From sequence record MN850636.1: 64,000 nt of DNA, one strand, 5' to 3'. Below the pieces are notes generated by a model. It saw only the letters and a list, made by a program, of their open reading frames with translations, did not search any database and had not been told where the DNA came from. A program made the position numbers and the translations under genes. This document shows positions 21,260 to 56,142 of this stretch, piece after piece; position 1 is the first letter of the stretch; each line of letters starts with the position of its first letter. This stretch comes from Escherichia phage dune.

Positions 21260-21336
21260 ACAGGGTCTTTTAATGAGGTACGGCGCGGTTAGGTAAGGTC
21301 TGGTAGGGTAGGGTGAGGTTTGGTAAAGTGCGGGTA
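21260..21336 (+). repeat. GT-rich tract (region B, tract 1)
   Basis: ggttaggtaaggtctggtagggtagggtgaggtttggtaaagtgcgggtag. Confidence 0.6.
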
Positions 21337-21338
21337 GT

Positions 21339-21366
21339 TAATCGGAGCTACATTAAAATCCGATTA
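21339..21366 (+). repeat. Hairpin family member: TAATCGGA-gctacattaaaa-TCCGATTA
   Basis: 8-bp stem; loop identical to 19957-19982. Confidence 0.65.
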
Positions 21367-21404
21367 CATCACTTAAGAGTCTTCTAAGAGGGTTTTTAAG
21401 TGAT
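21366..21404. repeat. 10-bp inverted repeat CATCACTTAA(N19)TTAAGTGATG (copy 2)
   Basis: Palindrome seen directly. Confidence 0.6.
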
Positions 21405-21406
21405 GT

Positions 21407-21470
21407 TCGGTAGGGTCTGGTAGGGTAAGGTCTGGTCTGGTAGGGTCTGGTAGGGTGAGGTATGGGTAGT
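21407..21470 (+). repeat. GT-rich tract with tandem GGTCTGGTAGGGT units (region B, tract 2)
   Basis: tagggtctggtagggtaaggtctggtctggtagggtctggtagggtgaggtatgg. Confidence 0.65.
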
Positions 21471-51745: not shown

Positions 51746-52001
51746 ATTAAATCTTTTTAGAGAACTTCTAAGAACCTGAGCAACAAGGTTCCACAACAAG
51801 CGACTAATAACCTTAGAAGCCCTCTAAAAAGACCTAAATAGGTCTTTGCATAGTCTTGTTTAATCCGGTGACTAGAACCTTTGGAGAGCTTGATATTATC
51901 TCTTCTCCGTGACACCTACTAGGTGCTTTGACAGTGTACGACAATACACGAGGGATAAACCGACAATGCGAACAAGCATGGACGGAGTAAATCTTATTAG
52001 G

Positions 52002-52102: not shown

Positions 52103-52185
52103 TGGCATGGGACGGAGGAGTTGAACCCCTTTGAAACGGTTTTGGAGGCCGTTGCTCATGCCTTAGAGTCTTAACATCGTCCCAT
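52103..52185 (-). tRNA. tRNA-like, possibly Trp (anticodon CCA), enlarged D region
   Basis: Perfect 7-bp acceptor, T-arm, loop cuCCAaa; atypical 83 nt. Confidence 0.45.
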
Positions 52186-52403: not shown

Positions 52404-52650
52404 CATTATCTTTAAAGACTCTCTTAGAAAGCCCTTAAAGATGCCCACCTTATTAATCATACCGTGGGCGAGTACGCCAAATTCTTTGATGAGGGATTGG
52501 AAGACCTCACTGGTGTTTAGCCTATCAAGCTACTGCCAGAAAAACATTGTCGTTTGCATTTATTTTAAATTTGCAAAATAGACGCTACGCAACGAAAACT
52601 AAGGTTACTATAAAGTAGTCACATCTCAATGTCAACAACTTTATTGAAAT

Positions 52651-52726
52651 TGGTACTGGTAGGTGGAATCGAACCACCGATGTTCCCTTATCAGGGGAGT
52701 GTTATAACCTTCTTAACTATACCAGC
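52651..52726 (-). tRNA. tRNA-Ile (anticodon GAT)
   Basis: Anticodon loop cuGAUaa. Confidence 0.65.
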
Positions 52727-52727
52727 T

Positions 52728-52804
52728 TGGAGGTTCAGATGGGAATCGAACCCACATTCATAGGGCTTATGAGACCCTTGCATTACCTTATCTGCGACTG
52801 AACC
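52728..52804 (-). tRNA. tRNA-Met (anticodon CAT)
   Basis: Anticodon loop cuCAUaa; perfect acceptor. Confidence 0.65.
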
Positions 52805-52808
52805 ATAT

Positions 52809-52884
52809 TGGTAGAAGTGGAGGGATTCGAACCCATCGCCTGTCAGATTAAAAGTCTGCCGCATCACCATTCTGCTACACTTCC
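52809..52884 (-). tRNA. tRNA-Lys (anticodon TTT)
   Basis: Anticodon loop cuUUUaa. Confidence 0.6.
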
Positions 52885-52892
52885 ATTAAATT

Positions 52893-53020
52893 ATCTTTGT
52901 AGATAAGCTACCCAGACTTGCTTAAGGTCTGTAGCGATGTGCCTTTTTTGGGTTTAAATCTAGAATTTACCCATTCACCCTTTGTGGTCGCATACTCACA
53001 AGTAAGCTTAATAACTTATC
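52893..53020. repeat. Structured tRNA-free element bounded by perfect 13-bp inverted repeat CTTTGTAGATAAG / CTTATCTACAAAG
   Basis: Inverted repeat at 52895-52907 and 53006-53018 enclosing CAGAC/GTCTG hairpin. Confidence 0.5.
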
Positions 53021-53085
53021 TACAAAGGTAATTACCAGACCGTTGTTTATCATCTTAAGTGCTACCATTACACCAACTCGACATC

Positions 53086-53160
53086 TGCCGAGTGAAGGAA
53101 TCGAACCTTCGCCTTTTCTTTACCAGAGAAATAGATTGTTTAAGTTTTGCTGTAAACGGC
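53086..53160 (-). pseudogene. Degenerate tRNA-like gene (Thr-like, anticodon GGT) with weak acceptor stem
   Basis: Perfect T-arm (gaagg-TTCGATT-ccttc) and anticodon arm (uuucu-cuGGUaa-agaaa) but only 5/7 acceptor pairs and poor D-arm. Confidence 0.4.
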
Positions 53161-53169
53161 CTTCTGTAA

Positions 53170-53250
53170 ATTTGTTGAGCCAGACCAAGTTTTAAATTTT
53201 CAAAATTAAATTGGCTTGAAAATATCATACGTTCTTGCTGAATTTGGTCT
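53170..53250 (-). ncRNA. Structured repeat element copy 1 (AGACCAA...TTGGTCT stem; conserved TTGCTGAAtttGGTCTTCTG)
   Basis: 7-bp terminal stem; shared 30-nt motif with copies at 53584 and 53738. Confidence 0.45.
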
Positions 53251-53321
53251 TCTGCTCCTTTAAAGAATACTCGTAAGAACTCTTTAAGGGAGGGGCTAAA
53301 TAGCCCTCTCAAAATTGGCGG

Positions 53322-53398
53322 CTACGATGAGACTTGAACTCACATCATCTCCCGTGACAGGGGAGTATTTTCTCCAGTTAAACTACATAGCCTTTATT
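53322..53398 (-). tRNA. tRNA-Asp (anticodon GTC)
   Basis: Perfect anticodon stem cuccc/gggag, loop cuGUCac. Confidence 0.7.
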
Positions 53399-53403
53399 GG
53401 TGT

Positions 53404-53491
53404 GCCGTGTAGGAGTCGAACCTACCGAGTCTCAATGACAAGGGATTTACAGTCCCCACCGCTACCATCTACGGGATAACGACACATTTAA
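53404..53491 (-). tRNA. tRNA-Tyr (anticodon GTA), long variable arm
   Basis: 88 nt; loop cuGUAaa; perfect T-arm. Confidence 0.65.
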
Positions 53492-53499
53492 TTTGGCGG

Positions 53500-53576
53500 T
53501 TAGTCAGGGATTCGAACCCTGTGCCATTCGCTTAACAGGCGACCGCACATACCTTATGTGCTTCCTAACCTTAATA
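53500..53576 (-). tRNA. tRNA-Asn (anticodon GTT)
   Basis: Anticodon loop cuGUUaa; perfect T-arm caggg/ccctg. Confidence 0.65.
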
Positions 53577-53583
53577 CATTGCC

Positions 53584-53646
53584 AGACCGTGTTTTTTCTT
53601 TTATCCGCAAAAAAGTATTTTGTTGCTGAATACGGTCTTCTGCAAA
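53584..53646 (-). ncRNA. Structured repeat element copy 2 (AGACCGT...ACGGTCT stem)
   Basis: Stem carries compensatory AA/TT -> GT/AC change relative to copies 1 and 3. Confidence 0.45.
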
Positions 53647-53725: not shown

Positions 53726-53737
53726 ATTCTTAATGAC

Positions 53738-53812
53738 CAGACCAAATCTCTTCTTTGTCCGATTTACCTTCAGATGAATAAGATTAAGTTTGCTGTAATT
53801 GGTCTTCTGTCA
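53738..53812 (-). ncRNA. Structured repeat element copy 3 (AGACCAA...TTGGTCT stem)
   Basis: 7-bp terminal stem, conserved TTGCTGTAATTGGTCTTCTG. Confidence 0.45.
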
Positions 53813-53981: not shown

Positions 53982-54142
53982 AACTTTTCAAACTCTATGT
54001 AACCACTTTAACATTATTTTTTAGTGGTTGTCAAGAACTTTTTTAAAATATTTTTCAGTATCTTAGAAAAGCTCTCATTTCGTTTCTATGTAGAACATAT
54101 TAAAGGGTATTAAACACATTGTCAATACCCTTTTAAAACTTT

Positions 54143-55558
54143 TTACCAGATGTAACGGTCAATCATTACTGCTTTGAGCATTACACTGATTGGGTCAAAC
54201 TTCTCACCACCAAGCAGAGCTTTTAAAGTAGCTGGAGAGAAACCTGATACCATTGCTACACCGTTATCCTTAACAGATACTTCGCAAGTACCATTACGGT
54301 TTGCTAAGTACCAGAATACCAGTTGTGGCATCTTATATCCAGCTTTTTTGTACTTACTACGAATTTCTTCAAAGTTTGTACGACCGTTAGCTCCATCAAC
54401 CTGATTGAACTCCATATCGGAGAAGATGATAAGCTTACTTGGCATATCTTTCTGAGTCAAGTTGTTTCTTTTACCTGTTTCAAGAATGCGGTCAAAAGCT
54501 GCTTGTAAGTTAGTTGAGCCATATTCAACGTGTCGCATCACCTGACGATGACGGTTTCGTAAATCACCGCTCAGTTCGATGAAGTGAGGGTTTGTTGAAT
54601 AAACCATTAACTCATTCTTAAAGCAACCTGTATTGCGTTCTGCTACATACAAGGCAAGTGATACACCAATATCCAGAGCAGTAATGGAGCCAAAATTCAC
54701 CCAAGACATTGAACTTGATACATCAGACATACACAAGATGTTTTCACCTTCTGCCATCCAGTTTGGTAGTGCTTTCCACTGCTCATTAGCAACATCTGCA
54801 TTACCATACTTGACAGATTTAATCACATCGTATGGGTAAACAGCACCAGCGTTAATCTTAGTCTCACCTTTTGATAAGGACTCGATGTAAGCTTTGTAAC
54901 GCTCTCCATCTTTACGGTTAAACAGTTTTTGGTAACGTGCAGCAGCAAGTGAAGGAATCTTACTGTAGTCAATCTTACCAAACTCATTAGCAGAGATTTT
55001 TTGCTCAACTGTATCAGATAGTGCAGACAACAGTGTGCGGTACTCTTTCTCACTCAAGTTGGCAAACTTGCAGAAACGTTTTACAAACTGCTTATGACGT
55101 GGTTTGACTCGTGGTAACCACTTAGCCGCCAAACCTGCTGTTGCAGGGTCTAGTAATGCTGCTTCTAAATGTTTGAAGGCATCTGTCTCGAAACGAGTAC
55201 CTACGAAGATTTTGAAGTCATCAAAACGACCAAGTTCTGCAATCTTATCCATAATGCGAAGAACCTGCATAGACTCTAAAACTTTGTCTTCAATCGCTTG
55301 AAGCAAAACAGTTCTGAAGGCTTTACGCTCACCCATACCTTCTCGTACATCTCGCATATGCAGTAAAATACGAACTGCAACATCAACATCCTCACGCAAA
55401 GCTTTGTAGAACAGGTCTGGTAAGATTTCTACATTGCTACGGCTTGAACCAGCAGCTTTGTAAAAGTCCACAAGAGCAGACATTGATGAAGTATGGTTTA
55501 CAGCACCATTTTCAGTTCGACCTGCATGAAGGTGCGCATGTTTAAATAATTCGCTCAT
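54143..55558 (-). CDS. vWA-domain protein with MIDAS motif (alpha-helical N-domain + C-terminal vWA); TROVE/Ro60-like architecture possible
   Basis: 471 aa; DxSxS MIDAS in CMSDVSSSMSW, downstream LIIFSDMEF beta-strand/Asp; heads the tRNA operon on the same strand. Confidence 0.65.
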   Translation of the reverse strand: MSELFKHAHLHAGRTENGAVNHTSSMSALVDFYKAAGSSRSNVEILPDLFYKALREDVDVAVRILLHMRDVREGMGERKAFRTVLLQAIEDKVLESMQVLRIMDKIAELGRFDDFKIFVGTRFETDAFKHLEAALLDPATAGLAAKWLPRVKPRHKQFVKRFCKFANLSEKEYRTLLSALSDTVEQKISANEFGKIDYSKIPSLAAARYQKLFNRKDGERYKAYIESLSKGETKINAGAVYPYDVIKSVKYGNADVANEQWKALPNWMAEGENILCMSDVSSSMSWVNFGSITALDIGVSLALYVAERNTGCFKNELMVYSTNPHFIELSGDLRNRHRQVMRHVEYGSTNLQAAFDRILETGKRNNLTQKDMPSKLIIFSDMEFNQVDGANGRTNFEEIRSKYKKAGYKMPQLVFWYLANRNGTCEVSVKDNGVAMVSGFSPATLKALLGGEKFDPISVMLKAVMIDRYIW

Positions 55559-55639
55559 ATTTTACTCTCTTCTCTCATTTGTTGTTTGATGTGACAGACT
55601 TTAGAGCAACTTTGTAGAGTCTGTCAACACCTTTTAAAA

Positions 55640-56011
55640 TTATTTTTTGAGAGTCGCTACAGCAGAGAACGTTGGTTTGTTATCTGTCTGTGGCTGACCA
55701 CCATTATCAGGGGTTTTCTTAGTGTCTGCTGCAAGTGCTTTCATCTCACCTGCTGAGTGAGTAAAGATGGTTTTACCGACCTCAATCATACTCTTGATGG
55801 TTACGTCGTCTGTGTTTAACCCGAACTCTGCAAGCTTAGCAGCGTCCCTTGTAACAATCGCCTCAAACAGTTTTGCAGCAAACTCAGCAGAATTATCAAT
55901 GGTCAGTTGAGCTTTTACAAGTGAGCTTTTGTTACGAGAGCCTTTTGGTCTTCCAGATGGGTTTCCAGATTGGCCTTTTTTAAACTGGCCTTTGTTTGTT
56001 CTGTTTTTCAT
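55640..56011 (-). CDS. Hypothetical protein with N-terminal KGQSGNPSGRPKGSRN motif
   Basis: 123 aa; conserved GNPxGRPKG-type basic N-terminus. Confidence 0.5.
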   Translation of the reverse strand: MKNRTNKGQFKKGQSGNPSGRPKGSRNKSSLVKAQLTIDNSAEFAAKLFEAIVTRDAAKLAEFGLNTDDVTIKSMIEVGKTIFTHSAGEMKALAADTKKTPDNGGQPQTDNKPTFSAVATLKK

Positions 56012-56142
56012 TGGTATGCCTCTTATAAGACCTCTTAAAAGGCTTTTAAGATAAAAGATAGATATCCAGAAAGATATCTGTTTAAATAGCCTTTTTAGAG
56101 GAACCTTTTAAGTTATCTTCTAAGTATTTATAAGCCTACACC

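What the first reader, a model, noticed from the sequence alone, without database searches (positions are those of the whole stretch)
52885..53085. tRNA-free structured segment bounded by a perfect 13-bp inverted repeat
CTTTGTAGATAAG (52895-52907) and its exact reverse complement (53006-53018) are 98 nt apart, enclosing a CAGAC/GTCTG hairpin and a T-run. No tRNA or convincing ORF is present. A ~125-nt structured RNA is possible; T4 has small stable RNAs of unknown function in its tRNA region.
Basis: partly seen in the sequence, partly recalled or inferred. Interest (0 to 1): 0.45.

Follow-up and report, generated by a model that had tools for sequence, protein, structure and literature searches.

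The report
Phage Y-like RNA beside tRNA-Lys
The inverted repeat is the base stem of a conserved, roughly 145-nt folded RNA made from the tRNA strand of a Felix O1-like phage, and it is the last unit of a row of small RNAs that sit just downstream of a phage Ro60-like protein gene and appear to be that protein's undescribed "Y RNA" partners.

Summary
The inverted repeat is real, but the second arm lies at 53015-53027, not 53006-53018. It extends to a 23-bp stem (53033-53011 with 52911-52889) on the minus strand, the tRNA strand. A 13-bp repeat alone is not rare. Across three Ounavirinae lineages the stem is 97% paired, with 7 pairs changed on both sides. G-U pairs fit only the minus strand, and the overlapping ORFs are not conserved.

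The stem encloses about 100 nt and ends 4 nt before tRNA-Lys(UUU). The right end of the flagged interval belongs to a neighbouring permuted tRNA mimic with YrlA architecture. Both lie in an array with three shorter modules. All start 0.3-1.2 kb downstream of a DUF2828/DUF7788 gene whose predicted fold matches Ro60.

The four upstream modules share a bulged helix followed by UWCAGCAA. That signature occurs within 1 kb of DUF2828 genes in 55 of 81 distant phage loci: 87 hits against about 4 expected.

Best reading: a Y-RNA-like array cut out of the tRNA precursor. Binding to the protein is inferred. The flagged module carries only a reduced form of the motif and is lineage-restricted. It is a new variant of a known kind.

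The parts
52889..53033 (-). Module e, the flagged element. It is an RNA domain of about 145 nt closed by the 23-bp stem P1 (53033-53011 pairs with 52911-52889). It ends 4 nt before tRNA-Lys(UUU).
   Evidence: Stem 97.4% paired over 21 sequences, 7 of 23 pairs changed on both sides, slid controls 26-47%. RNAalifold predicts the same stem independently. The covariance model scores 149 bits on the - strand and 41 bits on the + strand.
52913..52931 (-). Hairpin P-last: CAGAC-CUUAAGCAA-GUCUG followed by G52912. It is a reduced copy of the array's 'helix + UUNAGCAA + G' motif.
   Evidence: 100% paired, 2 of 5 pairs changed on both sides. The loop is conserved as YUWAGCAA while the stem changes to AGUC/GACU, GUUC/GAAC and GAGAC/GUCUC in L008, L009, L091 and L093. 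It is the only such mini hairpin in the window.
53003..53007 (-). GCUUA, the candidate pseudoknot partner of the P-last loop bases UAAGC (52924-52920).
   Evidence: The complement sits at the same relative place in lineages A and C (UAAGC/GCUUA). It switches to UUAGC/GCUAA in lineage B and in L092. Inferred; not tested statistically.
52984..52999 (-). Inner hairpin GUG-A-GU-AUGCG-AC-CAC carrying the conserved GAGUAKGC motif.
   Evidence: The motif recurs as GAGUAUGCG, GAGUGCCG, GAGUAGGC or GGGUAGGC in all seven sequence types. Its pairing is not resolved.
52949..52973 (-). Inner hairpin UGGGU-AAAUU-CUA-GAUUU-AA-ACCCA with the palindromic AUUCUAGAUU core.
   Evidence: MFE folds. The core is invariant in lineages A and B. 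93% paired, with no double changes.
53032..53169 (-). Module d, a permuted tRNA mimic with YrlA architecture. Outer helix UUAC/GUAA, bulges AGA and G, inner helix AGGCCGUU/AACGGUCU, UACAGCAA. Then V hairpin 53131-53115, T arm 53110-53094, acceptor-like hairpin 53093-53076, U8-G9, and D arm 53073-53059. Its 3' third lies inside the flagged interval.
   Evidence: 96.5% paired, 8 pairs changed on both sides. The acceptor-like stem has five different sequences that all pair. MFE folds give the cloverleaf in every relative. The Rfam tRNA model partly matches 53093-53143.
53177..53257 (-). Module c: GAGC-AGA-AGACCAA-AUUCAGCAA ... UUGGUCU-G-GCUC.
   Evidence: Descriptor scans. The outer helix covaries, GGGC/GUCC in L008.
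53255..53310 (-). Two hairpins directly after tRNA-Asp. The first is GAGAGGGC-UAUUUA-GCCCCUC. The second is a 17-bp stem with a UACG loop (53292-53255).
   Evidence: Inverted repeat I4. Conserved in all relatives, including L008 with changed bases. Role unknown.
53579..53645 (-). Module b, filling the spacer between tRNA-Met and tRNA-Asn: UUGC-AGA-AGACCGU-AUUCAGCAA ... ACGGUCU-G-GCAA.
53734..53812 (-). Module a, filling the spacer between tRNA-Glu and tRNA-Met: UGAC-AGA-AGACCAA-UUACAGCAA ... UUGGUCU-G-GUCA.
52809..52884 (-). tRNA-Lys(UUU). Cleavage by RNase P at its 5' end would create the 3' end of module e.
   Evidence: ARAGORN. The module e homologue lies directly 5' of tRNA-Lys(UUU) in every relative examined, even where the other tRNA neighbours differ.
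54005..54125 (-). Two sigma-70-like promoters (54125-54097 and 54034-54005) upstream of tRNA-Pro. No terminator-like site follows on this strand before the next promoter at 52635-52607.
   Evidence: Consensus scan only. Transcription has not been shown.
54143..55558 (-). Gene for a 471-aa DUF2828 + DUF7788 protein with a Ro60-like fold. It is the homologue of Bas63 gp130.
   Evidence: Pfam E-values 4e-29 and 1e-42. AlphaFold2 model with pLDDT 88. The top 11 PDB matches are all Ro60 or Rsr, E about 1e-7, TM 0.5-0.6. The same similarity is reported for gp130 in bioRxiv 10.1101/2024.10.10.617714.

Best explanation
The window comes from a Felix O1-like phage (Felixounavirus). The flagged inverted repeat is the 23-bp closing stem of a conserved non-coding RNA domain of about 145 nt on the minus strand, 53033-52889.

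This domain is the last of five structured modules interleaved with the first tRNAs of the phage tRNA cluster. The cluster begins about 165 nt downstream of a gene for a Ro60-like protein (DUF2828/DUF7788).

Proposed mechanism:
- The modules are transcribed with the tRNAs from the promoters at about 54.0-54.1 kb.
- They are released when the tRNAs are processed. RNase P cutting at the 5' end of tRNA-Lys(UUU) would make the 3' end of this module.
- They then act as Y-RNA-like partners of the Ro60-like protein.
- The protein would recognise a helix followed by single-stranded UWCAGCAA, with a bulged G after the returning strand.

Modules a-d carry this signature at their base. Module d adds a YrlA-type tRNA mimic. 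The flagged module carries only a reduced version, in its last hairpin (CAGAC-CUUAAGCAA-GUCUG-G), plus lineage-specific domains and a probable loop-to-junction pseudoknot.

What is shown:
- The RNA structure is conserved through compensatory changes.
- Its strand is the minus strand.
- It is non-coding.
- It is always linked to tRNA-Lys(UUU).
- The protein has a Ro60-like predicted fold.
- The CAGCAA modules co-occur with DUF2828 genes across distant phages.

What is inferred: transcription, processing, binding to the protein, and any downstream effect.

My confidence by claim:
- About 0.9 that this is a functional structured RNA.
- About 0.75 that modules a-d are partners of the Ro60-like protein.
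- About 0.5 that the flagged module itself binds that protein.
For: Identity of the window: 99.9% identical to Escherichia phage fjerdesal. All 25 tRNAs are on the minus strand.

Stem P1:
- 97.4% paired in 21 distinct sequences from three lineages.
- 7 of 23 pairs changed on both sides.
- Slid controls give 26-47% pairing.
- RNAalifold finds the same stem and hairpin without guidance.
- G-U pairs (51 cells in the stem) become A-C mismatches on the other strand. The covariance model scores 149 bits on the minus strand against 41 on the plus strand.

More distant relatives (protein 53-63% identical) keep a closed domain of the same build directly 5' of tRNA-Lys(UUU), with almost no sequence identity.

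ORFs over the region shift or vanish among close relatives.

Protein: Pfam DUF2828 + DUF7788. The top 11 PDB fold matches are Ro60 or Rsr, including the Thermus phage Ro60.

Motif statistics:
- Strict descriptor: 32 hits on the gene strand and 0 on the opposite strand in 82 loci. The 5 hits outside Ounavirinae all lie within about 300 nt of the gene.
- Tuned descriptor: 87 hits within 1 kb of the gene in 55 of 81 distant loci. The far same strand has 35 hits in 752 kb and the opposite strand 23 in 910 kb. About 4 hits would be expected near the genes at the opposite-strand rate.

Five of six named phages from different families show 2-4 tandem full modules in the non-coding gap next to the gene. 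In the sixth, Vibrio ValKK3, only an ACAGCAA site was seen just upstream of the gene, with no returning strand found. In Klebsiella FBKp34 and mycobacteriophage Krypton555 one module matches Rfam YrlA at 38-40 bits, E 1e-5 to 1e-7.

Module d: 96.5% paired, 8 double changes, and five different acceptor-like stems.
Against: - No expression or binding data exist for any of these RNAs.
- The flagged module lacks the full signature. It has AGCAA rather than CAGCAA, a 5-bp helix, and no 5' bulge. The G after the hairpin is missing in L092 and L093.
- The covariance model finds the module in none of 75 distant DUF2828 loci. It is therefore not a general partner of the protein.
- Rfam's YrlA model does not hit the window at E<=10. 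YrlA's GNCGAA motif is absent.
- Pfam TROVE is not matched; the Ro60 link rests on predicted fold.
- Bas63 gp130 alone, expressed from a plasmid or from T7, counters the Ppl defence. That activity does not need the phage RNAs (bioRxiv 10.1101/2024.10.10.617714).
- The covariation in P1 comes from only three lineages, so the number of independent events is small.
Confidence: 0.6

Rival explanations
1. The element acts in cis as a structured spacer of the polycistronic tRNA precursor. It would guide or order cleavage by RNase P, RNase E or RNase III, or shield tRNA-Lys(UUU) and its neighbours from exonucleases. It would have no life of its own after processing and no link to the Ro60-like protein.
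For: It abuts tRNA-Lys(UUU) with a 4-nt spacer in the window and a similarly short one in every relative. Modules a and b fill whole inter-tRNA spacers. No terminator or promoter separates it from the tRNAs. The module is restricted to the lineage that has this tRNA arrangement.
Against: About 145 nt with several conserved inner hairpins, conserved loop sequences and a probable pseudoknot is far more than a spacer needs. The sister modules follow the DUF2828 gene in phages where no tRNA is adjacent, such as Staphylococcus 6ec, Listeria LMTA-34 and Krypton555. Most other tRNA pairs in the same cluster are 2-10 nt apart with no such structure.
Confidence: 0.2
2. It is a separate lineage-specific phage RNA whose target is not the Ro60-like protein. 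Examples would be a decoy or regulator tied to tRNA-Lys(UUU) biology, or a ribozyme-like fold. On this reading its resemblance to the CAGCAA modules is coincidental.
For: Strict linkage to tRNA-Lys(UUU). Own conserved motifs: GAGUAKGC, the CUAG palindrome, and the YUWAGCAA loop engaged in a candidate pseudoknot rather than left free. Absent from distant DUF2828 phages.
Against: No Rfam family, ribozymes included, matches at E<=10. In L009 the homologous domain is closed by a near-canonical array helix, UUGCA-AA-GAAUCU-UU-CAGCAU ... AGAUUC-CC-UGCAA. This ties it to the array by descent.
Confidence: 0.12
3. It is decayed DNA: remnants of duplicated tRNA genes or of a mobile insertion. The inverted repeat would be a leftover or a DNA-level palindrome for protein binding or recombination, with no RNA function.
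For: Phage tRNA clusters do hold pseudo-tRNAs. One record annotates a 131-nt 'tRNA-Thr(GGT)' over module d and others annotate small hypothetical ORFs here. A 13-bp perfect repeat is not rare by chance.
Against: Compensatory changes keep 23 + 5 pairs across lineages. The many G-U pairs are meaningful only in RNA of the minus strand. The region is 95-99% conserved in about 190 genomes and is kept, with a different sequence but the same fold, in relatives whose Ro60-like protein is only 53-63% identical.
Confidence: 0.03
4. The interval encodes a small protein. Candidates are the 37-aa ORF at 52918-53031 (+), the 33-aa ORF at 52967-53068 (-) and the 85-aa ORF at 53055-53312 (-). Some GenBank records annotate hypothetical proteins here.
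For: The ORFs exist. Hypothetical proteins are annotated in wV8, UAB_Phi87 and others.
Against: The ORFs change frame or length, or disappear, among close relatives. The 85-aa ORF becomes 57 aa, then 35 aa, then none. L008 has no ORF of 30 aa or more. One- and two-base indels are tolerated. The substitutions preserve base pairs, not codons.
Confidence: 0.02

Closest known systems
YrlA, the bacterial Y RNA-like tRNA mimic (Rfam RF02553; Chen et al. 2014, PMC4201824)
   Same: It is encoded close to, and on the same strand as, a Ro60-type protein. A stem formed by the 5' and 3' parts closes a domain ordered V, T arm, acceptor-like hairpin, D arm. Module d (53169-53032) has exactly this order, with a UUCGAUU T loop, a GG-containing D loop and U8. 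Homologous modules in Klebsiella FBKp34 and Krypton555 hit the YrlA model at E about 1e-5 to 1e-7.
   Different: The flagged module e has no tRNA-like domain. The window gives no YrlA hit at E<=10. The 5' motif is UWCAGCAA after a bulged helix, not GNCGAAN0-1G. The partner protein is DUF2828/DUF7788, not a Pfam TROVE protein. The RNAs come as an array of 4-5 interleaved with real tRNAs.
Phage Ro60 with Y RNA-like RNAs: Thermus phage phiLo Ro60 with Yrl1 and Yrl2 (PMC12135203); mycobacteriophage, CcrColossus and Bacillus phage G YrlA (PMC4201824)
   Same: A phage-encoded Ro60-fold protein with two or more small structured RNAs next to its gene. The RNAs have a stem-bulge-stem build with a short conserved single-stranded motif. 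The phiLo Ro60 structures (9kop, 9l5y) are among the top fold matches of the window's protein.
   Different: Those RNAs carry a CGAA motif and their proteins are recognisable TROVE proteins. Here the sequence family, the motif and the tRNA-interleaved layout all differ. No binding has been tested.
Bas63 gp130, a Felixounavirus Ro60-like counter of the Ppl defence (bioRxiv 10.1101/2024.10.10.617714)
   Same: It is the homologous gene in a phage of the same genus as the window. The authors noted the Ro60 similarity and the tRNA genes directly downstream. They guessed that some annotated tRNAs might be Y RNAs.
   Different: They named no RNA. The candidates found here are not the annotated tRNAs but the unannotated spacers between them. 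gp130 works against Ppl without them when moved into T7.
T4 small stable RNAs rnaC (species 1) and rnaD (species 2)
   Same: Small stable RNAs of unknown function encoded on the tRNA strand inside a phage tRNA cluster, directly next to a tRNA.
   Different: They lack the AGCAA/CAGCAA motif. rnaC has its own T arm and acceptor end. This was a motif check only; no alignment was made. No homologue of the Ro60-like protein was looked for in T4. The resemblance is positional only.

Membership tests
YrlA / bacterial Y RNA (RF02553) | Encoded within about 4 kb of a Ro60 orthologue, on the same strand | tested here: met
   Module e lies 1.1 kb and module d 1.0 kb downstream of the gene at 54143-55558, all on the minus strand. 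The Ro60 status of the gene rests on fold, as set out in the next row.
YrlA / bacterial Y RNA (RF02553) | The partner protein is a Ro60 (TROVE + vWA) protein | tested here: inconclusive
   Pfam gives DUF2828 + DUF7788, not TROVE. A sequence search of the PDB finds nothing. The predicted fold matches Ro60/Rsr over its full length, top 11 hits, E about 1e-7.
YrlA / bacterial Y RNA (RF02553) | tRNA-like domain ordered V, T, acceptor-like hairpin, D, closed by a terminal stem | tested here: not met
   Not met for the flagged module e, which has no T or D arm. Met for the neighbouring module d, whose 3' third lies inside the flagged interval.
YrlA / bacterial Y RNA (RF02553) | GNCGAAN0-1G motif near the 5' end | tested here: not met
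   The sequence shows UWCAGCAA instead. In the Klebsiella homologue the model's motif aligns elsewhere, to AUCUAAUG.
YrlA / bacterial Y RNA (RF02553) | Score at or above Rfam's gathering threshold of 69 bits | tested here: not met
   No hit at E<=10 on 52880-53320. The only YrlA hit in the cluster, 19.6 bits, lies over real tRNAs. Relatives in other phages reach 38-40 bits.
YrlA / bacterial Y RNA (RF02553) | Bound by Ro60 in vivo; modified by tRNA enzymes (TruB, DusA) | not testable with these tools
   Needs immunoprecipitation and modification mapping.
CAGCAA-type modules next to DUF2828 genes (family proposed here) | Helix of 6 bp or more whose 5' strand is followed within 1-5 nt by CAGCAA and whose 3' strand is followed by a bulged G; on the gene strand near the gene | tested here: inconclusive
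   Modules a-d meet it. The flagged module has only a reduced form: a 5-bp helix, a CUUAAGCAA loop, then G. Its L009 homologue is closed by a near-canonical copy.
tRNA | Cloverleaf with anticodon arm, recognised by ARAGORN or by Rfam RF00005 at 29 bits or more | tested here: not met
   ARAGORN finds none in 52885-53315. RF00005 gives 26.8 bits, partial (model positions 7-64), on 53093-53143 only.
Intrinsic terminator | G+C-rich hairpin followed by a U-run on the transcribed strand | tested here: not met
   The T-run is on the + strand. The scan reports no terminator-like site on the minus strand between 54005 and 52635.
T4 rnaC / rnaD small stable RNAs | Similarity to the T4 RNAs in sequence or motifs | tested here: not met
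   Motif check and MFE fold only; no alignment was made. The T4 RNAs have no AGCAA motif.

The most novel reading that the evidence does not exclude
DUF2828-type phage Ro60-like proteins have their own, so far undescribed class of Y RNAs, marked by a bulged helix plus UWCAGCAA. These RNAs occur in tandem arrays from enterobacterial, Campylobacter, Listeria, Staphylococcus and mycobacterial phages.

In Felix O1-like phages the array has been built into the tRNA operon. Its last member, the flagged pseudoknotted 145-nt RNA fused to tRNA-Lys(UUU), would be a specialised effector. It would couple the Ro60-like particle to tRNA-Lys metabolism or to a host defence that targets tRNA-Lys. The link to tRNA-Lys-directed defences is my own conjecture, not a tool result.
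Probability: 0.15. Interest if true: 0.85.

Novelty: new variant of a known kind. Interest (0 to 1): 0.66.

Why it matters
Ro60 and its Y RNAs are a conserved RNA-surveillance particle. Bacterial Y RNAs tether Ro60 to exoribonucleases and mimic tRNA.

A large, sequence-divergent branch of Ro60-like proteins (DUF2828) is common in phages; 709 phage records match here. One member, Bas63 gp130, was recently shown to defeat the Ppl defence, but no RNA partner was known.

This analysis gives concrete candidates with coordinates, a shared recognition motif and predicted structures. The question "what does the phage Ro60-like protein bind?" can now be tested directly by immunoprecipitation, gel shift and deletion.

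It also shows that the "empty" spacers in Felix O1-type tRNA clusters are conserved RNA genes. These spacers are often annotated as hypothetical ORFs or odd tRNAs. Felix O1-type phages are widely used for Salmonella and E. coli typing and therapy.

Tried and rejected
- Rfam on the cluster and on the gap at E<=10 gave only tRNAs, a sub-threshold partial tRNA hit and chance-level hits. No known family covers the flagged module.
- A sequence search of the PDB with the protein found nothing. The fold search was needed.
- My first loose motif descriptors were too noisy, about 10 hits per 13 kb on either strand. One run timed out. A relaxed version gave only about 2-fold enrichment. Anchoring on CAGCAA plus the trailing G solved this.
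- The covariance model of module e found no homologue in 75 distant DUF2828 loci. It gave only marginal scores (about 18 bits) for the true but diverged homologues in L009 and L091. I could not derive one consensus for the interior of module e across all seven sequence types. The GAGUAKGC region has two competing pairings.
- MAFFT misaligned the acceptor-like hairpin of module d and the P-last loop between lineages. Those were therefore compared by eye and by script rather than with the pair counter.
- T4 rnaC and rnaD were fetched and rejected as relatives on a motif check.
- Rejected readings: terminator (the T-run is on the wrong strand), coding ORFs, and a plain DNA palindrome (G-U pairs).
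- Literature searches for DUF2828, Felixounavirus small RNAs and Ro-like mycobacteriophage proteins found no description of these RNAs. Two Wolin-lab reviews were not held, so prior description cannot be fully excluded.
Full report
**Where the window comes from.** The stretch 52600-53600 is 99.9% identical to Escherichia phage fjerdesal. It matches more than 200 Felix O1-like phages (Ounavirinae, Felixounavirus) at 95-99%. ARAGORN finds 25 tRNA genes, all on the minus strand, between 49155 and 53978. The flagged interval lies in the largest tRNA-free gap, 431 nt between tRNA-Asp (53316-53392) and tRNA-Lys(UUU) (52809-52884).

**The observation.**
- The first arm, CTTTGTAGATAAG, is at 52895-52907 as stated.
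The arms are 107 nt apart.
- The repeat extends to 22-nt arms with two mismatches.
- The CAGAC/GTCTG hairpin is there.
- The T-run is on the + strand only.
- A perfect 13-bp inverted repeat within 150 nt turns up in a quarter of dinucleotide shuffles of the window.
- Folding energy is only 2.7-3.3 sd better than shuffles.

The sequence alone therefore proves little.

**Comparative evidence for an RNA stem.** I collected the homologous gap from GenBank Ounavirinae (Felixounavirus, Suspvirus, Mooglevirus). I added metagenomic relatives whose neighbouring protein is 53-89% identical.
- In 21 distinct sequences from three lineages, a 23-bp stem (53033-53011 with 52911-52889) is 97.4% paired.
- Seven of its pairs changed on both sides, for example U-A to C-G and C-G to G-C.
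- The last inner hairpin is 100% paired, with two double changes.
- Sliding the partner by 1-3 columns drops pairing to 26-47%.
- RNAalifold recovers the same two helices unaided.
- The stem holds many G-U pairs, which would be A-C mismatches on the other strand. A covariance model built from the alignment scores 149 bits on the minus strand against 41 on the plus strand.

The ORFs that overlap the interval change frame or length, or vanish, among close relatives.

So this is a conserved structured RNA of the tRNA strand, about 145 nt long. I call it module e.

**Anatomy of module e.** All sequence types fold the same way: a long closing stem, a multi-branched interior, and a final hairpin placed 1-2 nt before the returning strand of the stem.
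- The final hairpin is 52931-52913 in the window. Its stem varies (CAGAC/GUCUG, CAGUC/GACUG, GUUC/GAAC, GAGAC/GUCUC). Its loop is conserved as YUWAGCAA.
- Loop bases UAAGC can pair with GCUUA just after the 5' strand of the stem (53007-53003). In lineage B and in Yersinia phage P778 (L092) the two sites read UUAGC and GCUAA, a matched change. This suggests a pseudoknot. I regard it as likely but unproven.
- A GAGUAKGC motif and a palindromic AUUCUAGAUU hairpin are also conserved.
- In every relative the module ends 0-5 nt before tRNA-Lys(UUU), even where the upstream tRNA differs.
- The model finds marginal homologues at that exact place in L009 and L091. It finds none in 75 distant loci. Module e is therefore confined to the Ounavirinae-like lineage.

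**The right end of the flagged interval is a different thing.** Read on the minus strand, 53169-53032 is, in order:
- an outer helix, UUAC/GUAA;
- bulges, AGA on the 5' side and G on the 3' side;
- an inner helix, AGGCCGUU/AACGGUCU;
- the sequence UACAGCAA;
- a 5-bp hairpin with a 7-nt loop;
- a T arm, GAAGG-UUCGAUU-CCUUC;
- a 7-bp acceptor-like stem closed by a loop;
- U-G;
- a D arm, GUGU-AAUGGUA-GCAC.

This is a tRNA opened at the anticodon and closed at the acceptor end, the architecture described for YrlA (PMC4201824). MFE folds give this cloverleaf in every relative. The helices are 96.5% paired with 8 double changes. The acceptor-like stem occurs in five different sequences that all pair. 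One GenBank record mis-annotates it as a 131-nt tRNA-Thr.

**A repeated motif.** The base of this tRNA mimic recurs three more times upstream:
- 53812-53734, between tRNA-Glu and tRNA-Met;
- 53645-53579, between tRNA-Met and tRNA-Asn;
- 53257-53177.

Each copy reads NNNC-AGA-AGRCC...-UWCAGCAA ... GGUCU-G-GNNN. The outer 4 bp differ between copies but always pair: UGAC/GUCA, UUGC/GCAA, GAGC/GCUC, UUAC/GUAA. Relatives at 53-57% protein identity keep the build with other helix sequences, such as AGUAUC/GAUACU, AGACUC/GAGUCU and AGUGUC/GACACU. The final hairpin of module e looks like the same motif with the insert removed: AGAC-CUUAAGCAA-GUCU-G.

**The neighbouring gene.** The cluster starts about 165 nt downstream of a 471-aa protein gene (54143-55558, minus strand).
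- It matches Pfam DUF2828 and DUF7788.
- An AlphaFold2 model (pLDDT 88) has Ro60 structures as its top 11 PDB matches: frog, human, Deinococcus Rsr and Thermus phage phiLo. These are full-length matches at E about 1e-7.
- The homologous protein of Bas63, gp130, was independently noted to resemble Ro60 and shown to counter the Ppl defence. Those authors only guessed that some annotated tRNAs might be Y RNAs.
- Homologues occur in 709 phage records from many families.

**Does the motif follow the gene?** Yes.
- Strict descriptor over 82 loci carrying a homologue, with 5-6 kb flanks: 32 hits on the gene strand and none on the other. The five hits outside the Ounavirinae all lay within about 300 nt of the gene.
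- Five of six named phages from different families showed 2-4 tandem full modules in the non-coding gap touching the gene: Klebsiella FBKp34, Campylobacter F352, mycobacteriophage Krypton555, Staphylococcus 6ec and Listeria LMTA-34. The sixth, Vibrio ValKK3, showed only an ACAGCAA site just upstream of the gene, with no returning strand found. Several of these have no tRNA adjacent.
- Tuned descriptor (7-bp helix, 1-5 nt, CAGCAA, returning strand followed by G): 87 hits within 1 kb of the gene in 55 of 81 distant loci. The rest of the same strand has 35 hits in 752 kb and the opposite strand 23 in 910 kb. About 4 hits would be expected near the genes at the opposite-strand rate.
- In FBKp34 and Krypton555 one module encloses a tRNA-like core that Rfam's YrlA model scores at 38-40 bits. 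This is below the 69-bit cut-off but at E 1e-5 to 1e-7.
- The window itself has four canonical copies and one mini hairpin, all on the minus strand.

**Interpretation.** The most economical reading is that DUF2828 proteins are a divergent Ro60 branch with their own Y-RNA-like partners. The partners would be recognised through a bulged helix followed by UWCAGCAA. In Felix O1-like phages these RNAs have been woven into the tRNA operon.

Two promoter-like sites precede tRNA-Pro. No terminator-like site follows before the next promoter at 52635. The modules would therefore be co-transcribed with the tRNAs and freed by tRNA processing.

For the flagged module this is an inference. It shares descent and a reduced motif with the array, but it has extra conserved domains and a fixed link to tRNA-Lys(UUU). 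It may do something more specific, or it may serve the precursor in cis.

Against a simple story, gp130 alone protects T7 from Ppl. At least that activity does not need the phage RNAs.

**Comparison with known systems.**
- Module d works like YrlA and is probably a distant relative. It fails YrlA's sequence motif and Rfam threshold.
- Module e fits no known family.
- T4's rnaC and rnaD share only the location.
- I found no paper in the searchable library that describes RNAs next to DUF2828 genes. Two reviews could not be read.

**Verdict.** The finding is real and more interesting than first scored. It is a new variant of the Ro60/Y RNA theme with a clear experimental path. The function of the flagged module itself remains inferred.

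Noticed in passing
window 53734-53812, 53579-53645, 53177-53257 (minus strand): Three short structured modules share a bulged helix and UWCAGCAA. Two of them fill whole inter-tRNA spacers. None is annotated in GenBank relatives.
   Followed up: yes
window 53255-53310 (minus strand): Two conserved hairpins lie directly after tRNA-Asp, one a 17-bp stem with a UACG tetraloop. They overlap by 3 nt, so they may be alternatives. Conserved in L008 with changed bases. Role unknown.
   Followed up: partly
window 52105-52185 (minus strand): A tRNA-like remnant, GGGACG...GGGGUUCAACUCC...CGUCCCA, with acceptor and T arm. ARAGORN does not call it; Rfam tRNA-Sec scores 23 bits. It sits in the 238-nt gap between tRNA-Arg and tRNA-Ser. 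A similar element exists in L009.
   Followed up: no
window 51747-51839 (+), and the 254-nt gap 51746-51999: A weak hit of the module e model (21 bits, E 0.09) on the + strand in another large tRNA-free gap. Probably just a long hairpin, but that gap was not examined.
   Followed up: no
window 52525-52709 (minus strand): Rfam permuted-tmRNA hit at 29 bits (cut-off 47, E 0.004). It overlaps tRNA-Ile and a strong promoter-like site (52635-52607, 11 of 12 matches). Likely driven by the tRNA part.
   Followed up: no
window 21297-21450 (+) and 21626/21660: Five GGTCTGG copies within about 150 nt on the + strand, four of them within 37 nt. The window's only other perfect 13-bp inverted repeat is also here. 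Probably a repeat inside a coding gene.
   Followed up: no
window 55598-56100 and loci L008, L009, L090-L095: A small DUF5681 gene sits directly upstream of the Ro60-like gene in all Ounavirinae-like relatives. This gives a conserved order: DUF5681, DUF2828, RNA/tRNA array. A promoter-like site (55627-55598) lies between the two genes.
   Followed up: no
L109 928-1479 (Listeria phage LMTA-34, NC_042048): A ROOL RNA match (88.5 bits, cut-off 99.1, E 1e-16) lies about 1 kb upstream of the phage's Ro60-like gene. An RtcB 'tRNA splicing ligase' gene lies about 1.3 kb downstream. Together they form an RNA-repair-flavoured neighbourhood.
   Followed up: no
L003 801-931 (REP6), L002 (wV8), L001 (fjerdesal): Public records annotate a 131-nt 'tRNA-Thr(GGT)' over the tRNA mimic. 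They also annotate hypothetical ORFs that overlap real tRNAs and the RNA modules. These are likely mis-annotations.
   Followed up: partly
L009 8950-9087 and 9487-9587; L093 7697-7828; L091 8048-8150; L092 7781-7883: More distant relatives carry one or two further tRNA-mimic modules, some with only T arm plus acceptor-like hairpin. One lies after tRNA-Lys(UUU). The number and make-up of modules therefore varies between lineages.
   Followed up: partly
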